IMG/VR virus record: IMGVR_UViG_3300022821_000013
Location: 1 to 64,000 of that record
Reading direction: 5' to 3' (one strand)
Source of the DNA: a virus
DNA length: 64,000 bases
Below the pieces are notes generated by a model. The model was not told the origin of the DNA. It saw only the letters and a list, made by a program, of their open reading frames with translations, and did not search any database. Of this stretch, positions 3,054 to 10,614 are shown piece by piece. The translations under genes and the position numbers were made by a program. Position 1 is the first letter of the stretch. Every line of letters begins with the position of its first letter.

Positions 3054-3058
3054 AAATG

Positions 3059-3143
3059 CGGAAATAAAAGGAATCGAACCTTCATCTCGTTTTCACGATT
3101 GACTCTTTAGCAAAGAGTTTGCTACACCAATTGCCGTATTTCC
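3059..3143 (-). tRNA. tRNA-Ser(GCT)
   Basis: Acceptor GGAAATA/TATTTCC, anticodon arm ACTCT-TTGCTAA-AGAGT, long variable arm, TTCGATT T-loop, G73; atypical D-arm. Confidence 0.85.
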
Positions 3144-3155
3144 ATTTTTTTAGTG

Positions 3156-3242
3156 TACCGGTAGGAAGATTTGAACTTCCAAGTGTATCTTCGTTTACCC
3201 ACGAGTCTAAATCGCGTGACTTTACCATTTGTCTATACCGGT
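3156..3242 (-). tRNA. tRNA-Leu(TAG)
   Basis: Acceptor ACCGGTA/TACCGGT, loop TTTAGAC, long variable arm, GGAAG-TTCAAAT-CTTCC. Confidence 0.88.
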
Positions 3243-3249
3243 AGATTTG

Positions 3250-3323
3250 TGGACACATATCGGATTTGAACCGATAACCCCCATATTGCAAGTATGGTGC
3301 TTTCCCAATTAAGCTAATGGCCC
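3250..3323 (-). tRNA. tRNA-Ala(TGC)
   Basis: CCATA-CTTGCAA-TATGG anticodon arm, canonical D and T arms; acceptor stem has a bulge. Confidence 0.8.
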
Positions 3324-3329
3324 ATTATT

Positions 3330-3386
3330 GTATGATATATCATTCATATTATATGGATTATATGTTATATGAATGACATATCATAC
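3330..3386. repeat. 20-bp inverted repeat (long hairpin) between tRNA-Gln and tRNA-Ala
   Basis: GTATGATATATCATTCATAT ... ATATGAATGACATATCATAC, one G-U pair on the minus strand. Confidence 0.8.
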
Positions 3387-3391
3387 TAATG

Positions 3392-3463
3392 TTGAGTGGG
3401 GTGGGGTCGAACCACCGAATGTCGGCTTCAAAAACCGATGCCTTACCACTTGGCTACCACCCA
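3392..3463 (-). tRNA. tRNA-Gln(TTG)
   Basis: TAGCCAAGTGGTAAGGC D-arm, TCGGT-TTTTGAA-GCCGA, GGTGG-TTCGACC-CCACC. Confidence 0.88.
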
Positions 3464-3471
3464 ATATATTG

Positions 3472-3544
3472 TACGAATGAATGGATTCGAACCATCACTG
3501 AACGAGGTTTAAACTCGATCCCTCTTCCGTTGGGGTACATTCGC
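3472..3544 (-). tRNA. tRNA-Leu(TAA), short variable loop
   Basis: Acceptor GCGAATG/CATTCGT, loop TTTAAAC, 5-nt variable region, TTCGAAT T-loop. Confidence 0.78.
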
Positions 3545-6389: not shown

Positions 6390-6407
6390 ATATACCTTAG
6401 TTTAAAG

Positions 6408-6480
6408 AGGTGAATCCCAGATTCGAACTGGGGTAAACGAGTTTGCAATCCGTTGTCTGAAACCACTCGACTAATTCACC
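6408..6480 (-). tRNA. tRNA-Cys(GCA)
   Basis: Acceptor GGTGAAT/ATTCACC, U73, loop TTGCAAA, CCCAG-TTCGAAT-CTGGG. Confidence 0.85.
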
Positions 6481-6493
6481 ATTATTATATTTT

Positions 6494-6566
6494 GTACCCA
6501 AGGTAGGATTCGAACCTTTATCTCCAATTGGAGGTAGGATAATGTTGCCAATTACACCAAATGTAC
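6494..6566 (-). pseudogene. degenerate tRNA-Gly(TCC)-like
   Basis: TGGTGTAATTGGCAACA D-arm, loop CCTCCAA, TTCGAAT; acceptor and T stems only partly paired. Confidence 0.55.
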
Positions 6567-6578
6567 ATTTCTAACGAG

Positions 6579-6652
6579 TTGACCTGGACGGACTTGAACC
6601 GTCGATCTTCGAATTATGAGTTCGCTGCTTTGACCAACTAAGCTACAGATCA
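6579..6652 (-). tRNA. tRNA(CAT), probably Ile2 (lysidine type)
   Basis: Acceptor TGATCTG/CAGGTCA, GCGAA-CTCATAA-TTCGA arm without the initiator GGG/CCC; Ile2 versus elongator Met is an inference. Confidence 0.8.
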
Positions 6653-6659
6653 ATATTTG

Positions 6660-6734
6660 GGTGAATGATGGGCTACGATCCCACGACCTTCGGTTTCACA
6701 GACCGACGCTCTAACCAACTGAGCTACAAACACC
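6660..6734 (-). tRNA. tRNA-His(GTG)
   Basis: G-1:C73, TCGGT-CTGTGAA-ACCGA; non-canonical T-loop ATCGTAG and two acceptor mismatches. Confidence 0.8.
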
Positions 6735-6745
6735 ATAATAAAAAG

Positions 6746-6829
6746 TTGCGGAAGACAGATTCGAACTGTCATTATACTTCTCGTCTCTGGGTTATGAGCC
6801 CAGGATGTTAACCATTACACCATTCCGCA
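6746..6829 (-). tRNA. tRNA-Met(CAT), initiator-like, with expanded variable region
   Basis: CTGGG-CTCATAA-CCCAG (three G-C pairs), acceptor TGCGGAA/TTCCGCA, 16-nt variable region AGACGAGAAGTATAAT. Confidence 0.8.
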
Positions 6830-6837
6830 ATAACTTG

Positions 6838-6910
6838 TGATCTTACAGGAACTCGAATCCTGATTGCAACTTCGAATGAGTTGTGTCCTAACCATTTAGA
6901 CGATAAGACC
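6838..6910 (-). tRNA. tRNA-Glu(TTC), non-canonical anticodon loop
   Basis: Glu-like body (TCGTCTAAATGGTTAGGAC), CAACT-CATTCGA-AGTTG with A33 and G37. Confidence 0.78.
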
Positions 6911-7131: not shown

Positions 7132-9237
7132 TTATTTTATATATTTTGAATTTATAGTTAGAACATCACTTGCTCTAACAACATTTTTATTATCTAACGT
7201 ATCATCCTCATACTCATCCGTAACATATAGCATATCAGCGTTATCAATGTCAAATGTTAATTGTGATGGTGCATAGTACATACTAAATAAGTCTTTTAAT
7301 GTAGTTTTATCAGTTAGATTAACTATAGACCTTAACACATCAGATACATTCACATCATTATTGATAACTGTGTTATGATGCATACCACCATTTCTAAAAT
7401 ATAAATCAGTCCAGATTATCTGTTTAGTTTCAATATCAAAGATAAATGGAACTGCTACCTTAGAATTTCCATCTAATTTCATAGAATACTTAACTGTTTT
7501 AGGATCATAAATCTCATTTGAATTAGGACGTTCTCTTAGCATAAAACCTGCGAAACATTCTTTATGTTCTTTAAATGTTGGGCCACTATAAACATTTATA
7601 TTTAATGTTATATATCTAACTTCTGATTTTACTACTTTATTCATAGTTATATCAATAAATTCAGATGCTCCATTTGGTGCTCGTGTAATATCACCAGAAT
7701 GTACTATTTCTAATTCTTTAATTTTTAATTGTTGAAATGAACAATGAGTTACCATTTCAAATTTATCATTATATAATGTAGCTGACAAATCAATATCTTG
7801 TCCTATCCAATGACAAAACATTCGTAAAGTTATATTTTTATTTTTATCTTCTAAATCAATCTTAGATCCTCTACCATAAGAGAATTGACCTTCCGATACA
7901 CTTCTTTGTTGTGTAGGTAATGTATATTGACTTAATCTTTCATCTATATATACTTTCTTACCTTCTGACGTTCCTTGTAATCTCAATCTTAAATGTGAGT
8001 TTATACAATTTAGATAGTCTTGTACTAATTGCAATTGCCAATCTGTAAATTTCTTAAATTGCACTCTTCTAACTTTAGATGTAGAACCTTTAGGAAATAC
8101 TAATCTACTATCATAACCTTTTAATATAACTTGTAAGTGTCCTTTAGCTTGTAATAATACTCGTGTTGATACTTCTGATATACATTCTTCTAAATTATCA
8201 ATACCTAATTTACCAGAGTTATATCCATCAGAGATATTAATTAAAGTTACTATGTTTCTTACGTATTCACCTGGTTTCTTCATTAGAGAATTAATAGCTG
8301 AATGATAGTCTTTATTTTTTAAAGATTCATTTATAATAGTGCTTAAACTCTCTACATTTTTATTATTTCTAAATGATCTCAATACATCTGAAAATTTGGA
8401 TTGTTTTAGAAATTCACCACAATGTAATGAATGTGTTAATTTAATCCATTTATTTTTATGTCTCTTGAAGTCATCTACGTTAAACACTTTATCAAGTCTA
8501 TTAGTTATTCTACGTCTAAGACTTTTAGATAATGATTTAAACTTGGTATTTTCAGTTAATGATACATCACCACCAGATAGATATGTACAGTAACGTAGTA
8601 TATCAGTTGGTGTTTTGAGTAATTCTAAATTATCAGTATATTCAACTACATAACATAAGTTTTCTTTATATGGAATATTTATAGTATTAATATCATATAT
8701 CTCTCCAAAGTGAGCTATTAATACCTTAACTGATTCCTTATCGAAATCAGATAGAGAATCATTAGTAGATAATAAATCACATAATATTTCTATCATACCA
8801 TTAATATCTATTATACCTATACGTTTGAAGTTTAATACGTCAATATCAGTTTGTCTTGGCTTTTTATCTATATCTGGATAGTATTCGCCTAATGACAAAT
8901 AATGTATTATAGCGTTAAAGTATAGCTCAAATTCAGACATATTATAAACTTCTTCTGGGAAGTTTGGATAAAATGTTTTATATGAACGTGCACCTTTAAA
9001 TTCTTCCAATATAAAAATTATATCAATTAAATTTAAGTTATATCGTAATACAAGTTTAAGTAAATGAGAATCTATCGTATAACCCAAATTATTCAATATT
9101 TGGTTATATGCTATAGTCTCTTTTATTGATTGTTTGTAATTATTAATATCAATATCTTCTAATACTGTAGAAGATGAGTCCATTATGAATATAGATGATC
9201 TATATTTTAATGCTATTTTTAATAGGTCTTTATTCAT
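7132..9237 (-). CDS. Ro/TROVE-like helical protein with C-terminal TerD domain
   Basis: N-terminal YKTFYPNFPEEVYNMSEFELYFNAIIHY, TPTDILRY, KPGEYVR motifs; C-terminal TerD signature DIDLSA...HSGDITRAPNGASEFIDI. TerD domain is well supported; Ro-like N-terminus is from family recall. Confidence 0.75.
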   Translation of the reverse strand: MNKDLLKIALKYRSSIFIMDSSSTVLEDIDINNYKQSIKETIAYNQILNNLGYTIDSHLLKLVLRYNLNLIDIIFILEEFKGARSYKTFYPNFPEEVYNMSEFELYFNAIIHYLSLGEYYPDIDKKPRQTDIDVLNFKRIGIIDINGMIEILCDLLSTNDSLSDFDKESVKVLIAHFGEIYDINTINIPYKENLCYVVEYTDNLELLKTPTDILRYCTYLSGGDVSLTENTKFKSLSKSLRRRITNRLDKVFNVDDFKRHKNKWIKLTHSLHCGEFLKQSKFSDVLRSFRNNKNVESLSTIINESLKNKDYHSAINSLMKKPGEYVRNIVTLINISDGYNSGKLGIDNLEECISEVSTRVLLQAKGHLQVILKGYDSRLVFPKGSTSKVRRVQFKKFTDWQLQLVQDYLNCINSHLRLRLQGTSEGKKVYIDERLSQYTLPTQQRSVSEGQFSYGRGSKIDLEDKNKNITLRMFCHWIGQDIDLSATLYNDKFEMVTHCSFQQLKIKELEIVHSGDITRAPNGASEFIDITMNKVVKSEVRYITLNINVYSGPTFKEHKECFAGFMLRERPNSNEIYDPKTVKYSMKLDGNSKVAVPFIFDIETKQIIWTDLYFRNGGMHHNTVINNDVNVSDVLRSIVNLTDKTTLKDLFSMYYAPSQLTFDIDNADMLYVTDEYEDDTLDNKNVVRASDVLTINSKYIK

Positions 9238-9262: not shown

Positions 9263-9401
9263 TTAAATTGTGATTATGAAATCGTTTTATACTTCTGCTC
9301 TACCAACTGAGCTACTAACCGATTATTACGATTAGGTAGGACTCGAACCTACGACCTGAAGTTCCTTAATGTTAGAAGTATGATTTCATATAGCAATTTA
9401 A
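9263..9401 (-). ncRNA. Y-RNA-like (YrlA-type architecture) tRNA mimic, array unit 4
   Basis: Terminal stem with conserved array motifs encloses a T-arm (GTAGG-TTCGAGT-CCTAC) placed before a D-arm (TAGCTCAGTTGGTAGAGC), i.e. a circularly permuted tRNA with no anticodon loop. Confidence 0.8.
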
Positions 9402-9410
9402 GTAAAAAAT

Positions 9411-9472
9411 GTCTGTAATTGAAATTTCGATTAATATCCAAAATTATAGAAGTATGAAATTTCATAGCAGAC
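9411..9472 (-). ncRNA. short stem-loop ncRNA, array unit 3
   Basis: GTCTG-CTA-TGAAATTTC-ATACTTCTA-loop-CGAAATTTCA-ATTA-CAGAC. Confidence 0.75.
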
Positions 9473-9493
9473 TTAAATTAATTTTAAAAGAAA

Positions 9494-9561
9494 GGGTTGT
9501 AATTATAAAAACGTAGTTTGCGTTTTGTATATTTTAGAAGTATGTTTCTATATAGCAACCC
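9494..9561 (-). ncRNA. short stem-loop ncRNA, array unit 2
   Basis: GGGTTG-CTA-TATAGAAAC-ATACTTCTA-loop-CGTTTTTATA-ATTA-CAACCC. Confidence 0.75.
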
Positions 9562-9568
9562 ATAGTAT

Positions 9569-9644
9569 TATTTGTAATTGATATTTCGTTTCTTGTTATA
9601 TTCATGGTATAGTAGTTTAGAAGTATGAAATATCATAGCAAACA
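9569..9644 (-). ncRNA. short stem-loop ncRNA, array unit 1
   Basis: TGTTTG-CTA-TGATATTTC-ATACTTCTA-loop-CGAAATATCA-ATTA-CAAATA. Confidence 0.75.
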
Positions 9645-9717: not shown

Positions 9718-10614
9718 TTAGTCAAATAACTTATCTATAATTTTAGCTACATAAGTAGAATTAATATCTTCTTTCTTAGAATCTTGTAATATATCTACTA
9801 ACGCATACATATATGCTTGATCAACACCAGTTAATTGTTCAGTTAAGACATTAATATCAGACATATCTATTTCAGATATTTGCCACATTATTTTTAATTG
9901 TTCTCCAGCAGATATTCTCCAACCACGTTCTAAGAACTTCTTAGTTCTAAATATAGATGCTATTGGATATAAACTACCTTTATATACTAAAGTCCTCGAT
10001 AACAAGCATTCTAATGCTTCTGGGTGCAATACCAACGTATCATTATCATAATCATAATAATTCATAGCATGAACAAAATCATAATTACTATGGATAGTTT
10101 GTGGATCACCATAAAATCTAGTTACTAATTGAATCTTATCTGTTAATGTTATAGCATTACTTGATATGAACACAGGTGCATATTTACCATTTTCATCTGT
10201 AACAAAATCACCGAAATCATCAGAATCTGTTTCATTTGTTACGATACCCTTACCACCTCTTGCTTCAATATAAACTCTATCTTCATCTACACCTTTAATA
10301 TTACAAATAGACTTTTCAATTACATTCATAGGAACTTCATCTAATTTATTAGATACTCTAATACTATTTAATTTATTAATGTAATATTTAGCTACTTGTA
10401 TATTGCAATCTTTAGTTTTAAAATATATATCATAATCATTTACTGGATCACCTAATAACATAGATGCTATAGAGCCACCAGTTACGATTGTATTTTTTCT
10501 ACATAATTTTTGTATATTCTCATCATCTATACTATCTATCCAATTAGATACTTTTTTATTTAGTTCCTTTCTGATACCTGATTTCTTTCTACCATATTTA
10601 ATATCTACACTCAT
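9718..10614 (-). CDS. pol-beta superfamily nucleotidyltransferase-like protein
   Basis: TGGSIASMLLGDPVNDYDIYF (GG...DxD) and YDFVHA motifs, reminiscent of the CCA/poly(A) polymerase head. Confidence 0.7.
   Translation of the reverse strand: MSVDIKYGRKKSGIRKELNKKVSNWIDSIDDENIQKLCRKNTIVTGGSIASMLLGDPVNDYDIYFKTKDCNIQVAKYYINKLNSIRVSNKLDEVPMNVIEKSICNIKGVDEDRVYIEARGGKGIVTNETDSDDFGDFVTDENGKYAPVFISSNAITLTDKIQLVTRFYGDPQTIHSNYDFVHAMNYYDYDNDTLVLHPEALECLLSRTLVYKGSLYPIASIFRTKKFLERGWRISAGEQLKIMWQISEIDMSDINVLTEQLTGVDQAYMYALVDILQDSKKEDINSTYVAKIIDKLFD

What the first reader, a model, noticed from the sequence alone, without database searches (positions are those of the whole stretch)
9285..9365. Circularly permuted tRNA mimic inside the gene-proximal unit
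Seen on the minus strand: ACTTC-AGGTC-GTAGG TTCGAGT CCTAC (T-arm), CTAATCG-TAATAAT-CGGTTAG (acceptor stem closed by a loop), TAGCTCAGTTGGTAGAGC (D-arm), A-GAAGT (pairs with ACTTC as the anticodon stem, which opens into the protein-binding stalk). It has no anticodon loop and no free CCA end. Established: this T-before-D order is the hallmark of bacterial YrlA Y RNAs. Inference: an elbow mimic that could decoy tRNA-targeting defence enzymes or recruit tRNA-processing enzymes.
Basis: partly seen in the sequence, partly recalled or inferred. Interest (0 to 1): 0.72.

Follow-up and report, generated by a model that had tools for sequence, protein, structure and literature searches.

The report
tRNA-mimic head on a phage Y-like RNA
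A large salt-lake phage encodes a small RNA whose tip copies a tRNA body (T arm, closed acceptor stem, D arm, no anticodon) on a conserved stalk, next to a helical/TerD protein gene; the RNA-gene pair recurs in many phages and bacteria and looks like an undescribed cousin of the Ro60/Y-RNA particle.

Summary
On the minus strand at 9291-9362 lies a 72-nt tRNA body in the order anticodon-stem 3' strand, variable loop, T arm, 7-bp acceptor hairpin, U8-A9, D arm, anticodon-stem 5' strand.

- **Family match.** Rfam YrlA matches only this part, at 37.9 bits against a gathering score of 69. A model built from 14 homologues without the window scores it 93.2 bits; the next best window hit, tandem tRNAs, scores 23.6.
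- **Selection on the fold.** In 50 homologues, 95.6% of pair cells are paired, 19 of 21 pairs show compensatory changes, and the tertiary 15-48 pair covaries. It is therefore not decayed tRNA.
- **Context.** The head caps a stalk, so the whole unit spans 9264-9400. It is the last of four units upstream of a 701-aa helical + TerD gene. Units with the same handle flank 75 of 78 phage and 75 of 80 bacterial homologues, on the gene's strand. No protein-coding neighbour is conserved.
- **Classification.** It is not a strict YrlA: the GNCGAA motif is absent, there is no TROVE neighbour, and the protein shows no profile similarity to TROVE, only a moderate Ro60-like fold.
- **Function.** Adaptor or decoy roles remain inference.

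This scan has met the same RNA-protein system before on other DNA. I found no description of it in the literature I could search.

The parts
9264..9400 (-). Whole gene-proximal unit (unit D), about 137 nt: stalk plus tRNA-like head. True RNA ends are not mapped.
   Evidence: Homology-guided structure. R1 scores it 105 bits and the leave-one-out model R2 93.2 bits over 9288-9400.
9394..9400 (-). P1 5' strand (UAAAUUG). Pairs with 9264-9270 (CAAUUUA), 7 bp.
   Evidence: Read from the sequence and present in the MFE fold. An equivalent basal helix is present in homologues.
9264..9270 (-). P1 3' strand.
9390..9393 (-). Conserved internal-loop 5' side, CUAU of the GGCUAU motif. The window has U in place of the first G.
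   Evidence: In the 50-sequence alignment: G 49/50, G 49/50, C 50/50, U 45/50, A 41/50. The window is the one sequence with U at the first G.
9271..9275 (-). Internal-loop 3' side, AAUCA. The family consensus is RAUUU before CC.
   Evidence: Unit table.
9382..9389 (-). P2 5' strand (AUGAAAUC). Pairs with 9276-9283 (GAUUUCAU), 8 bp.
   Evidence: Family-wide covariation of this segment: a full 9-bp helix in 79 of 220 units against 3 of 220 in a derangement control (Fisher p 1e-23).
9276..9283 (-). P2 3' strand.
9373..9381 (-). Handle motif AUACUUCUA. The family consensus is UCCUUCUA; the window-private C-to-A variant is shared by all four window units.
   Evidence: UCCUUCU columns are 47-50 of 50 conserved, and the window is the single A at the second position. 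The motif occurs four times in this spacer and at 0 mismatches nowhere else in the window.
9363..9372 (-). Linker ACAUUAAGGA. Its last R-A aligns with tRNA positions 37-38.
   Evidence: Columns 48-49 of A5: R 48/50, A 43/50.
9358..9362 (-). P3 5' strand ACUUC, equivalent to tRNA anticodon-stem positions 39-43.
   Evidence: 5 of 5 pairs show compensatory changes; 91.6% of cells paired in 50 sequences.
9353..9357 (-). Variable-loop equivalent AGGUC (positions 44-48, with G46 and C48).
   Evidence: C48/U48 covaries with G15/A15: 33 G-C, 12 A-U, 4 other (Fisher p 6e-8).
9336..9352 (-). T arm GUAGG-UUCGAGU-CCUAC.
   Evidence: T loop: U U C 50/50, R, A 50/50. Stem 99.2% paired, with compensatory changes in 4 of 5 pairs.
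9315..9335 (-). Acceptor stem, 7 bp (CUAAUCG/CGGUUAG), closed by the 7-nt loop UAAUAAU. No encoded CCA.
   Evidence: 7 of 7 pairs show compensatory changes. The stem is 7 bp in 49 of 50 homologues; loops are 1-17 nt.
9313..9314 (-). U8-A9 equivalents.
   Evidence: U 50/50, A 44/50.
9297..9312 (-). D arm GCUC-AGUUGGUA-GAGC, with A14, G15, G18, G19 and A21.
   Evidence: A14 50/50, G18 50/50, A21 48/50.
9291..9295 (-). P3 3' strand GAAGU, equivalent to anticodon-stem positions 27-31. It follows A26 at 9296.
9284..9290 (-). 3' side of the internal loop, AUAAAAC, opposite the handle.
9411..9643 (-). Three further units of the same stalk family without a tRNA head: A about 9643-9570, B about 9561-9494, C about 9472-9411.
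   Evidence: Repeat family D1, motif search and unit table with paired P2.
7132..9237 (-). 701-aa helical + TerD protein gene. It starts 27 nt after the unit and is the presumed protein partner.
   Evidence: ORF. Family of about 690-aa proteins. TerD domain at residues 460-635, Z 14.6. N-terminal fold resembles Ro60 at Z 8.4 over 253 aa. NF041916 at 1.7e-83, below the cut-off.

Best explanation
The element is the tRNA-mimicking head of a Y-RNA-like small RNA.

**Anatomy.** The RNA is about 137 nt (9400 to 9264, minus strand) and has two parts.
- A stalk: basal helix P1, a conserved internal loop (CUAU opposite AAUCA), a covarying helix P2, and a single-stranded handle. The handle is UCCUUCUA in the family and UACUUCUA here.
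- A head that reproduces a class I tRNA body with every elbow and core contact. The acceptor stem is closed by a loop, and the stalk is inserted where the anticodon would be.

**Shown here.** The fold is under purifying selection. The head occurs only inside such stalks. Such stalk RNAs are the one conserved neighbour of the helical/TerD protein family.

**Inferred.**
- The stalk and handle are the binding site for the adjacent 701-aa protein, as Y-RNA stems bind Ro60.
- The RNA is cut out of the operon transcript together with three head-less sister units.
- The head works as an adaptor. It either brings a factor that recognises the tRNA elbow or the acceptor-T minihelix to the particle, or occupies such a factor. 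Candidates include RNase P, the CCA-adding enzyme, TruB, TrmA, Dus, an RNA ligase, or a host tRNA-directed nuclease.

Which factor is involved, and whether the result is tRNA repair or quality control or neutralisation of a host defence, is not known.
For: **Sequence and fold**
- The segments are as described.
- Rfam YrlA hits the module at 37.9 bits.
- The leave-one-out model R2 scores it at 93.2 bits, against 23.6 for tandem tRNAs.

**Selection on the head**
- In the 15-sequence MAFFT alignment, 97.1% of pair cells are paired, against 67.9% in shuffles and 36-44% with partners slid. 17 of 21 pairs show double changes.
- In 50 sequences, 95.6% are paired, 19 of 21 pairs are compensatory, and 0 of 500 shuffles reach this.
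- The tertiary pair 15-48 covaries: G-C 33, A-U 12, other 4, p 6e-8.
- U8, A14, G18 and T-loop UUC..A are invariant.

**Stalk**
- The handle motif falls on the gene strand 257 times against 44 on the other strand in 78 phage loci, and 167 against 27 in 80 bacterial loci. It is present in 75 of 78 and 75 of 80 loci.
- P2 forms a full 9-bp helix in 79 of 220 units, against 3 of 220 when the partners are deranged.

**Linkage to the protein**
- Head-bearing units (46 bits or more, full length) lie within about 2 kb of the gene and on its strand in 24 of 70 phage loci and 14 of 80 bacterial loci.
- No protein family recurs next to the gene in more than 7 of 158 loci.

**Precedent**
- Ro60/Rsr binds YrlA-type RNAs that are encoded beside it on the same strand, carry tRNA modifications, and are substrates of tRNA enzymes (PMC4201824).
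- Phage phiLo Ro60 binds two upstream Y-like RNAs and host PNPase (PMC12135203).
- The N-terminal 450 residues of the protein give Ro60 as the only long structural match: 9l5y_B at Z 8.4, rmsd 4.6, 253 aa; 2nvo at Z 6.6, 259 aa.
Against: - There is no expression, end-mapping or binding data.
- The protein is not a detectable TROVE homologue. hhalign of its family against bacterial TROVE proteins gives probability 0.6%, and against DUF2828 0.3%. The same method links DUF2828 to TROVE at 97.3%.
- A Z of 8.4 for a helical repeat is within the range the tool calls "middling".
- Pfam TROVE, DUF2828 and DUF7788 find nothing in the 93-kb record.
- In this window the thermodynamic optimum disrupts P3 in favour of pairing with the handle.
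- Many homologous heads close the acceptor with stable tetraloops, and the head has no anticodon loop. It therefore cannot itself be a substrate of anticodon nucleases or of enzymes that need a free 3' end.
Confidence: 0.72

Rival explanations
1. Free-standing decoy. The head acts on its own as a sponge for a host tRNA-directed defence enzyme that recognises the elbow or acceptor-T helix. The stalk only stabilises the RNA or marks it for processing, and the neighbouring protein is not a stable partner.
For: The window sits in a region rich in translation-related and counter-defence genes: two tRNA clusters, and NADAR and RNase H-like proteins. The head keeps all elbow contacts. A nearly identical head, 80% over 81 nt, is used with a different handle and a different protein (DUF2828) in Klebsiella phages, so it behaves as a portable module.
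Against: The strict linkage of stalk units to the helical/TerD gene in 150 of 158 loci, including bacterial chromosomes where a phage-style decoy makes less sense. The near-invariant single-stranded handle is best explained by a sequence-specific protein contact. Most units in the arrays carry no tRNA head at all.
Confidence: 0.15
2. Cis-acting leader element. The tRNA-like fold in the 5' leader of the 701-aa mRNA is a processing or regulatory signal, either tRNA punctuation cut by RNase P or RNase Z, or an autoregulatory operator. It is not a trans-acting RNA.
For: The unit ends 27 nt before the start codon, and no terminator-like site separates the array from the gene. M. smegmatis YrlA, with a 7-bp acceptor stem, is cut by RNase P (PMC4201824), and the window's stem is also 7 bp with a 7-nt loop. 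7 of 50 homologous heads begin the acceptor loop with NCCA.
Against: In many loci the arrays, including head-bearing units, lie downstream of the gene (for example L014, L020, L048, L049, L051, L056, L066-L070, L076, L081, L139, L188). That rules out a general 5'-leader role. Acceptor loops of 1-4 nt, including UUCG, in many homologues leave nothing for RNase P or RNase Z to remove.
Confidence: 0.1
3. Evolutionary debris: the 3' half of one tRNA gene next to the 5' half of the following one, or an attP-type tRNA fragment, with no function.
For: The YrlA-type models do cross-hit tandem tRNAs. Examples are window 6618-6730 at 28 bits and many weak hits (L098-L106, L110-L113), which one search shows to be adjacent true tRNAs.
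Against: In a tRNA dimer, the 3' acceptor strand of gene 1 and the 5' strand of gene 2 need not pair. Here they form 7 bp, with compensatory changes at all 7 positions across 50 homologues. P3 pairs the outer flanks and covaries at 5 of 5 positions. The missing halves are absent, and the flanks carry the stalk motifs instead. The score gap is 93 against 24 bits.
Confidence: 0.02
4. Split or permuted functional tRNA. The acceptor loop is removed, CCA is added, and the nicked molecule is aminoacylated or otherwise used in translation.
For: The 7-bp acceptor stem is strictly conserved, and NCCA follows it in 7 of 50 heads. [quoted passage not shown] None of the window's own tRNA genes encodes an unambiguous CCA end, so a CCA-adding activity is needed anyway.
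Against: There is no anticodon loop in any of the 50 heads, because the stalk occupies that place. Most acceptor loops are short, stable caps. Chen et al. found no such cleavage in Salmonella or Deinococcus.
Confidence: 0.03

Closest known systems
YrlA, the bacterial and mycobacteriophage Y RNA bound by Rsr/Ro60 (Rfam RF02553; Chen et al. 2014, PMC4201824)
   Same: - Long stem formed by the 5' and 3' ends.
- Head in the order T arm, loop-closed acceptor stem, D arm.
- tRNA tertiary nucleotides kept, including a covarying 15-48 pair.
- Encoded beside its presumed protein partner, on the same strand, together with a second head-less Y RNA (YrlB-like).
   Different: - Only the head matches the Rfam model (positions 23-85, 37.9 bits against a gathering score of 69).
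- The 5' GNCGAA(N)G Ro-binding motif is replaced by GGCUAU ... UCCUUCUA (here UGCUAU ... UACUUCUA).
- The neighbour is not a TROVE + vWA protein but a helical + TerD protein with no profile similarity to TROVE.
- Units come in arrays of up to about eight.
Klebsiella phage KP2025 / phi1_175008 (Stephanstirmvirinae): unannotated YrlA-like RNAs beside a DUF2828-DUF7788 protein
   Same: - The head is about 80% identical over 81 nt to the window's.
- Two tandem units lie next to the protein gene.
- A P1-CUAU-P2 type stalk can be drawn.
- R1 scores one of them at 70 bits.
   Different: - The partner there is a true Ro60 homologue: DUF2828 against TROVE gives hhalign 97.3%, E 1.7e-11, plus a weak vWA_Ro60 hit.
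- The handle position reads CAGCAA rather than UCCUUCU.
- The RNAs lie downstream of the gene.
Thermus phage phiLo Ro60 with Yrl1/Yrl2 (PMC12135203; PDB 9KOP, 9L5Y)
   Same: - Phage-encoded ring-like helical protein with two stem-bulge-stem RNAs directly upstream.
- Best long structural match of the window protein's N-terminal part (Z 8.4, 253 aa).
- The RNAs tether a host enzyme (PNPase).
   Different: - phiLo Ro60 has a vWA domain and recognises a CGAA bulge.
- No tRNA-like head is reported for Yrl1 or Yrl2 (0 occurrences of 'tRNA-like' in the text).
tmRNA and viral tRNA-like structures
   Same: RNAs that copy the T arm and acceptor helix of tRNA to engage tRNA-recognising proteins.
   Different: Those have a free, chargeable 3' end. 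This head has a capped acceptor stem and is not called by ARAGORN as a tRNA or tmRNA.

Membership tests
YrlA (Rfam RF02553; Chen et al. 2014) | tRNA-like domain in the order T arm, acceptor stem-loop, D arm, with conserved tRNA tertiary nucleotides | tested here: met
   cmscan alignment to model positions 23-85. Covariation of all four helices and of the 15-48 pair.
YrlA (Rfam RF02553; Chen et al. 2014) | Score at or above the family's gathering threshold (69 bits), with the basal stem also aligned | tested here: not met
   37.9 bits; only positions 23-85 of 114 aligned.
YrlA (Rfam RF02553; Chen et al. 2014) | GNCGAA(N0-1)G motif near the 5' end (proposed Ro60/Rsr contact) | tested here: not met
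   No such motif in the 5' part of 9264-9400(-). That position is occupied by UGCUAU ... AUACUUCUA. The motif definition is from PMC4201824.
YrlA (Rfam RF02553; Chen et al. 2014) | Encoded within about 4 kb of a TROVE-domain Ro60 orthologue, on the same strand | tested here: not met
   PF05731, PF11443 and PF25043 give no match in the 93-kb record. Pfam finds nothing in either flanking ORF. The record is only about 48% complete, so a distant TROVE gene elsewhere in the phage is not excluded.
YrlA (Rfam RF02553; Chen et al. 2014) | Carries tRNA modifications (D, T/pseudouridine) and is bound by Rsr in vivo | not testable with these tools
   Needs RNA from infected cells.
Handle-stalk RNAs flanking helical/TerD proteins (no published name; seen repeatedly in this scan) | 5' GGCUAU, 9-nt variable strand, then UCCUUCU(A) | tested here: met
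   The window has UGCUAU, 8-9 nt, then UACUUCUA. There are two private substitutions, and all four window units share them.
Handle-stalk RNAs flanking helical/TerD proteins (no published name; seen repeatedly in this scan) | The variable strand pairs with a downstream strand (P2), followed by RAUUUCC and a basal helix P1 | tested here: met
   AUGAAAUC pairs with GAUUUCAU, followed by AAUCA and then CAAUUUA, which pairs with UAAAUUG.
Handle-stalk RNAs flanking helical/TerD proteins (no published name; seen repeatedly in this scan) | Lies next to, and on the strand of, a homologue of the ~690-aa helical + TerD protein | tested here: met
   The unit ends 27 nt upstream of ORF 7132-9237(-). The same arrangement holds in 75 of 78 phage and 75 of 80 bacterial loci.
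Ro60 / TROVE proteins (for the neighbouring 701-aa protein) | Sequence-profile similarity to the TROVE HEAT-repeat ring | tested here: not met
   Pfam E<=10: none. hhalign of A3 against bacterial TROVE proteins: probability 0.6%. A1 against DUF2828: 0.3%. Positive control, DUF2828 against TROVE: 97.3%.
Ro60 / TROVE proteins (for the neighbouring 701-aa protein) | Ring-shaped helical-repeat fold superposable on Ro60 | tested here: inconclusive
   In VIA-align wide, Ro60 entries are the only matches longer than 250 residues: 9l5y_B Z 8.4, rmsd 4.6, 253 aa; 2nvo Z 6.6, 259 aa. The Z values lie in the range common for helical repeats.
Ro60 / TROVE proteins (for the neighbouring 701-aa protein) | C-terminal vWA domain with a MIDAS site | tested here: not met
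   The C-terminal domain is a TerD beta-sandwich (3ibz Z 14.6, 152 aa).
Canonical tRNA gene | 5' acceptor strand, D arm, anticodon arm, T arm, 3' acceptor strand, in that order | tested here: not met
   Not called by ARAGORN or Rfam tRNA. The order is permuted and there is no anticodon loop.

The most novel reading that the evidence does not exclude
The helical/TerD protein is not a diverged Ro60 but an independent RNA-binding scaffold. On this reading, the pair it forms with handle-stalk RNAs is a second, convergent class of Y-RNA-type particle, widespread in jumbo phages and at least ten bacterial phyla. Its exchangeable RNA heads, here an anticodon-less tRNA body, would act as programmable baits that present tRNA shapes to tRNA-directed enzymes. 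Phages would use the tRNA-bodied version to intercept or redirect host enzymes that attack or process tRNA during infection.
Probability: 0.3. Interest if true: 0.88.

Novelty: new variant of a known kind. Interest (0 to 1): 0.75.

Why it matters
Y RNAs with tRNA-like heads are so far known only as partners of Ro60/Rsr. What the tRNA mimic does there is still an open question.

This locus shows the same head design, under strong selection, grafted onto a different conserved handle. It sits beside a different protein (helical + TerD) that cannot be linked to TROVE by sequence. Phages and bacteria of many phyla carry the pair.

- **A more general device.** A tRNA body on a protein-binding stalk now appears with at least three handle/protein combinations: YrlA with Ro60, the Klebsiella phage RNA with DUF2828, and this family with the helical/TerD protein.
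- **Natural comparisons.** Sister units in the same array lack the head, so head-plus and head-minus RNAs can be compared directly.
- **Tractable organisms.** Cultured bacteria carry the module, including Aliikangiella, Brevibacillus, Niallia and Paenibacillus. The long-standing question of what the tRNA-like domain of a Y RNA recruits could be tested in them.

For phage biology, it adds a candidate RNA-based component to the tRNA and counter-defence island of a large salt-lake phage.

Tried and rejected
- **Expression data.** The look-up of sequencing runs listed no RNA holder. All 22 runs are salt-lake DNA metagenomes, and five may be the source sample.
- **Strain variants.** Laying contigs of four partial holders gave no variant inside the element. 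Only unrelated tRNAs of other organisms mapped onto the D and T arms.
- **Promoters and terminators.** Sigma-70-like sites were no more frequent than in shuffles (7 against 7.2), and no terminator-like site was found. This scan does not cover Bacteroidota-type promoters.
- **Handle as promoter.** I considered reading the GCTAT-N7-CATACTTCTA repeat as a phage promoter and rejected it. Its variable core covaries with a downstream strand, and at 0 mismatches it occurs nowhere else in the 64-kb window.
- **Sequence routes to a protein family.**
  - Pfam at E<=10.
  - A PDB sequence profile, with no hit below E 0.5.
  - hhalign against DUF2828 and against TROVE, both negative.
  - ESM Atlas, which returned only unnamed, TerD or RING-family clusters.
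  - NCBIfam gave a sub-threshold match to the uncharacterised MXAN_6230/SCO0854 RING family.
- **298-aa ORF.** The upstream ORF has a GGS-x11-DYD motif like pol-beta nucleotidyltransferases. It has no family hit and is not found near the gene in any of 78 phage loci.
- **Conserved protein neighbours.** None recurs in more than 7 of 158 loci.
- **CCA correlation.** I looked for a link between CCA-encoding tRNA genes and NCCA in the head's acceptor loop. It holds only partly.
- **Literature.** The terms YrlA/phage, Ro60/phage/Y RNA/TerD, SCO0854/MXAN_6230/TerD domain, and ROT TROVE/RNA repair/TerD returned no description of this RNA-protein pair. Burroughs & Aravind 2016 (PMC5062991), the most likely place for a prior mention, is not held and could not be read.
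Full report
**1. The observation**

- ACUUC
- AGGUC
- GUAGG-UUCGAGU-CCUAC
- CUAAUCG-UAAUAAU-CGGUUAG
- UA
- GCUC-AGUUGGUA-GAGC
- A
- GAAGU

In tRNA numbering this is 39-43, 44-48, the T arm 49-65, acceptor strand 66-72, a 7-nt cap, acceptor strand 1-7, U8, A9, the D arm 10-25, A26 and 27-31. All class I lengths are canonical, and the nucleotides that build the elbow and core are present:
- U8 and A14
- G15 with C48
- G18-G19 with the T loop
- U54 and A58
- G46

Only the anticodon loop is missing.

ARAGORN and the Rfam tRNA model call ten ordinary tRNAs in the window but not this element. At relaxed threshold, Rfam YrlA (RF02553) matches 9293-9360(-) with 37.9 bits, E 1.9e-6 in 1.2 kb and 3.4e-8 for the whole record. 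The match covers model positions 23-85 of 114, that is, the tRNA-like module and nothing of the YrlA basal stem. The gathering score is 69.

**2. The unit around it**

The head sits on a stalk. Read 5' to 3' on the minus strand:
- UAAAUUG (9400-9394) pairs with CAAUUUA (9270-9264). This is P1.
- CUAU faces AAUCA across an internal loop.
- AUGAAAUC (9389-9382) pairs with GAUUUCAU (9283-9276). This is P2.
- The single-stranded AUACUUCUA (9381-9373) and a 10-nt linker follow.
- These lead into P3 and the head.

ViennaRNA recovers P1, P2 and the three tRNA arms. However, its optimum (-34.9 kcal/mol) pairs AGAAGUAU with the handle AUACUUCU instead of forming P3. The best fold with P3 enforced is -31.5. 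The complementarity between the handle and the P3 3' strand is absent in most homologues (P3 sequences), so I follow the comparative structure and record the alternative as a caveat.

Three more units with the same stalk but short, unstructured tips lie upstream, at about 9643-9570, 9561-9494 and 9472-9411. The array fills the spacer between a 298-aa ORF and a 701-aa ORF (7132-9237, minus strand). Unit D ends 27 nt before the latter's start codon.

**3. Relatives**

The window is part of a 93-kb IMG/VR virus record estimated to be about 48% complete. It comes from salt-lake metagenomes.

The 701-aa protein belongs to a large family of about 690-residue proteins without Pfam domains. I fetched 78 phage loci and 80 bacterial loci encoding homologues, each with 3 kb of flank.

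*Handle motif.* The motif GCYRW-N(4-13)-[UCA][CA]CUUCU occurs far more often on the gene's strand than on the opposite strand:

| Loci | Gene strand | Opposite strand | Loci with the motif on the gene strand |
|---|---|---|---|
| 78 phage | 257 | 44 | 75 |
| 80 bacterial | 167 | 27 | 75 |

The motifs cluster in tandem arrays directly before or after the gene.

*P2 covariation.* The 9-nt variable segment between the two constant blocks forms a perfect 9-bp helix with downstream sequence in 79 of 220 distinct units. When each segment is tested against another unit's downstream sequence, only 3 of 220 do so (Fisher p 1e-23). After the 3' strand comes RAUUUCC and then a basal helix. This is therefore a real RNA family with a constant handle, covarying helices and a variable tip.

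*No protein partner.* An all-against-all comparison of flanking ORFs found no protein family that recurs in more than 7 of 158 loci. The RNA units are the only conserved neighbour of the gene.

**4. The head is conserved and under selection**

*Rfam YrlA in related records.* RF02553 gives sub-threshold hits (30-44 bits) in 23 of 49 phage records that carry the protein. In at least 12 records the hit lies within about 1 kb of the gene, on its strand. The weaker hits elsewhere are adjacent genuine tRNAs.

*Own models.* I built a covariance model (R1) from 15 head-bearing units.
- It finds full-length matches of 46-110 bits, always on the gene strand, in 24 of 70 phage loci and 14 of 80 bacterial loci.
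- The bacterial carriers include Gammaproteobacteria, Planctomycetota, Omnitrophota, Verrucomicrobiota, Clostridia and others.
- A second model built without the window (R2) scores the window element at 93.2 bits. Tandem tRNAs, the next best hit, score 23.6.

*Covariation.* The helices are paired in nearly all sequences:

| Alignment | Pair cells paired | Controls | Pairs with compensatory change |
|---|---|---|---|
| 15 sequences (MAFFT, not fitted to any structure) | 97.1% | 67.9% in shuffles; 36-44% with partners slid | 17 of 21 |
| 50 sequences | 95.6% | 0 of 500 shuffles reach this | 19 of 21 |

In the 50-sequence alignment the compensatory pairs include all 7 acceptor pairs and all 5 P3 pairs.

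*Tertiary contacts.* The 15-48 pair covaries: G-C 33, A-U 12, other 4 (p 6e-8). U8, A14, G18 and the T-loop U-U-C and A58 are invariant.

*Acceptor stem.* It is 7 bp in 49 of 50 sequences, capped by 1-17 nt (median 5). The caps are often stable tetraloops such as UUCG. Seven heads start the cap with NCCA; the window does not.

These data exclude the "two decayed tRNAs" reading and show selection for a tRNA-shaped fold with a closed acceptor end.

**5. The presumed protein partner**

AlphaFold models give pLDDT 83 for the full length and 85 for residues 1-452. They show an N-terminal helical-repeat region, a TerD beta-sandwich at about residues 460-635 (3ibz, Z 14.6), and a small C-terminal domain.

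In an exhaustive structural search with the N-terminal model, Ro60 entries are the only matches longer than 250 residues:
- Thermus phage phiLo Ro60, 9l5y_B: Z 8.4, rmsd 4.6 Å, 253 aa.
- D. radiodurans Rsr, 2nvo: Z 6.6, 259 aa.

Other hits align about 90-110 residues. The tool warns that such Z values are common for helical repeats.

Sequence methods do not connect the family to TROVE:
- Pfam finds nothing, even at E 10.
- hhalign against nine bacterial TROVE proteins gives 0.6% probability.
- hhalign against DUF2828 gives 0.3%.
- As a positive control, DUF2828 against TROVE gives 97.3%, E 1.7e-11 over 392 columns.

NCBIfam gives a sub-threshold match (1.7e-83) to the uncharacterised MXAN_6230/SCO0854 RING-domain family. 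The ESM Atlas places the protein with unnamed, "TerD family" and Prok-RING_4 clusters.

Only 9 of 50 bacterial genomes that carry the helical/TerD gene also have a canonical TROVE protein, and always at a different locus.

"Ro60-like" is therefore a statement about shape and genomic logic. It is not demonstrated homology.

**6. A third combination**

The only blastn matches of the 4-kb region in the phage collection are the 81 nt of the head, at about 80% identity, in Klebsiella phages KP2025 and phi1_175008.

There, two tandem YrlA-like RNAs (Rfam 34-40 bits, full model length) lie just downstream of a DUF2828-DUF7788 protein. By the control above, that protein is a diverged Ro60. Those RNAs carry CAGCAA where the present family has UCCUUCU.

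The same head design thus occurs with at least three handle/protein pairs. This argues that head and stalk are separate functional modules.

**7. Mechanism**

*Shown:*
- A structured RNA with a tRNA-shaped head.
- Selection on the secondary and tertiary pairs.
- Obligatory linkage of the stalk family to one protein family.

*Inferred from the Ro60 precedent.* Rsr binds YrlA and YrlB, which are encoded beside it, and YrlA is modified by DusA and TruB (PMC4201824). PhiLo Ro60 binds its two upstream RNAs and host PNPase (PMC12135203). By analogy:
- The invariant single-stranded handle and internal loop are the protein's binding site.
- The variable tip is an effector module.
- Here that module is a tRNA body that can engage factors reading the elbow or the 12-bp acceptor-T helix.

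*What the head cannot be.* It has no anticodon loop and a capped acceptor end, so it cannot be cut by anticodon nucleases or charged. It can only bind, compete or guide. Whether the outcome is tRNA surveillance or repair, or a block of a host defence enzyme, cannot be decided from sequence.

*A detail that fits protein-RNA co-adaptation.* All four window units share two private substitutions at positions that are 98% invariant elsewhere: U for the first G of GGCUAU, and UACUUCU for UCCUUCU.

**8. Known or new**

The head is the YrlA kind of tRNA mimic, which is known. The handle, the array organisation and the TerD-bearing partner are not in Rfam or Pfam. They are also not in any paper I could search. 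One likely source, Burroughs & Aravind 2016, could not be read.

Earlier notes of this scan describe the same RNA-protein system on other DNA. My tests were run independently and agree with them on the RNA. On protein homology they are more cautious.

I classify the finding as a new variant of a known kind.

Noticed in passing
L001:3848-4120 (Klebsiella phage KP2025, PP919962.1) and L002:3849-4120 (phi1_175008, PQ360875.1): Two tandem YrlA-like RNAs (Rfam 34-40 bits; R1 70 and 42 bits) lie just downstream of a DUF2828-DUF7788 gene. hhalign shows that gene to be a diverged Ro60 (97.3% against TROVE). The RNAs are unannotated, and in PQ360875.1 a 34-aa 'hypothetical protein' CDS is drawn over one of them on the opposite strand.
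   Followed up: partly
window 9373-9381, 9447-9455, 9535-9543, 9618-9626 (minus strand): All four window units carry UACUUCU where 49 of 50 homologous units have UCCUUCU. They also lack the first G of GGCUAU. A lineage-private handle variant shared by a whole array suggests co-adaptation with the cognate protein, or concerted evolution of the units.
   Followed up: partly
L012:2599-2700 (= L093:1986-2058): A sister unit in another phage carries a head in the normal tRNA order: acceptor-like AUCGGG, D arm, an anticodon-like hairpin capped by UUCG, T arm, CCCGAU. ARAGORN calls it 'tRNA-???'. Heads on this stalk are therefore not always permuted.
   Followed up: no
alignment A5 (50 head-bearing units from loci L006-L188): Seven of 50 heads begin the acceptor cap with NCCA (for example ACCA in L006, L008, L010, L061, L076), as if copied from a CCA-encoding tRNA gene or destined for cleavage. 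Many others have 2-4-nt caps that could not be processed.
   Followed up: partly
window 3058-3544 and 6407-6910: None of the ten phage tRNA genes encodes an unambiguous 3' CCA. The 298-aa ORF at 9718-10614(-), upstream of the RNA array, has a GGS-x11-DYD motif like pol-beta nucleotidyltransferases, but it has no family match and is not a conserved neighbour.
   Followed up: partly
window 7132-9237 (protein), bacterial loci L114-L193: The protein matches NCBIfam NF041916 (MXAN_6230/SCO0854 family RING domain-containing protein) below its cut-off. The ESM Atlas shows bacterial relatives of about 990 aa with an extra Prok-RING_4 domain, so some cellular versions may couple the RNA-binding module to a RING-type activity.
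   Followed up: no
window 9291-9298 and 9374-9381 (minus strand): AGAAGUAU (the P3 3' strand plus 3 nt) is perfectly complementary to the handle AUACUUCU, which gives a mutually exclusive 8-bp alternative to P3. That alternative is the thermodynamic optimum (-34.9 against -31.5 kcal/mol). It could be chance or a switch that hides the handle. It is not general in the family.
   Followed up: partly
bacterial genomes behind L114-L193: Only 9 of 50 genomes with the helical/TerD gene also encode a canonical TROVE (Ro60) protein, always at another locus. The two systems are therefore independent rather than co-dependent.
   Followed up: partly
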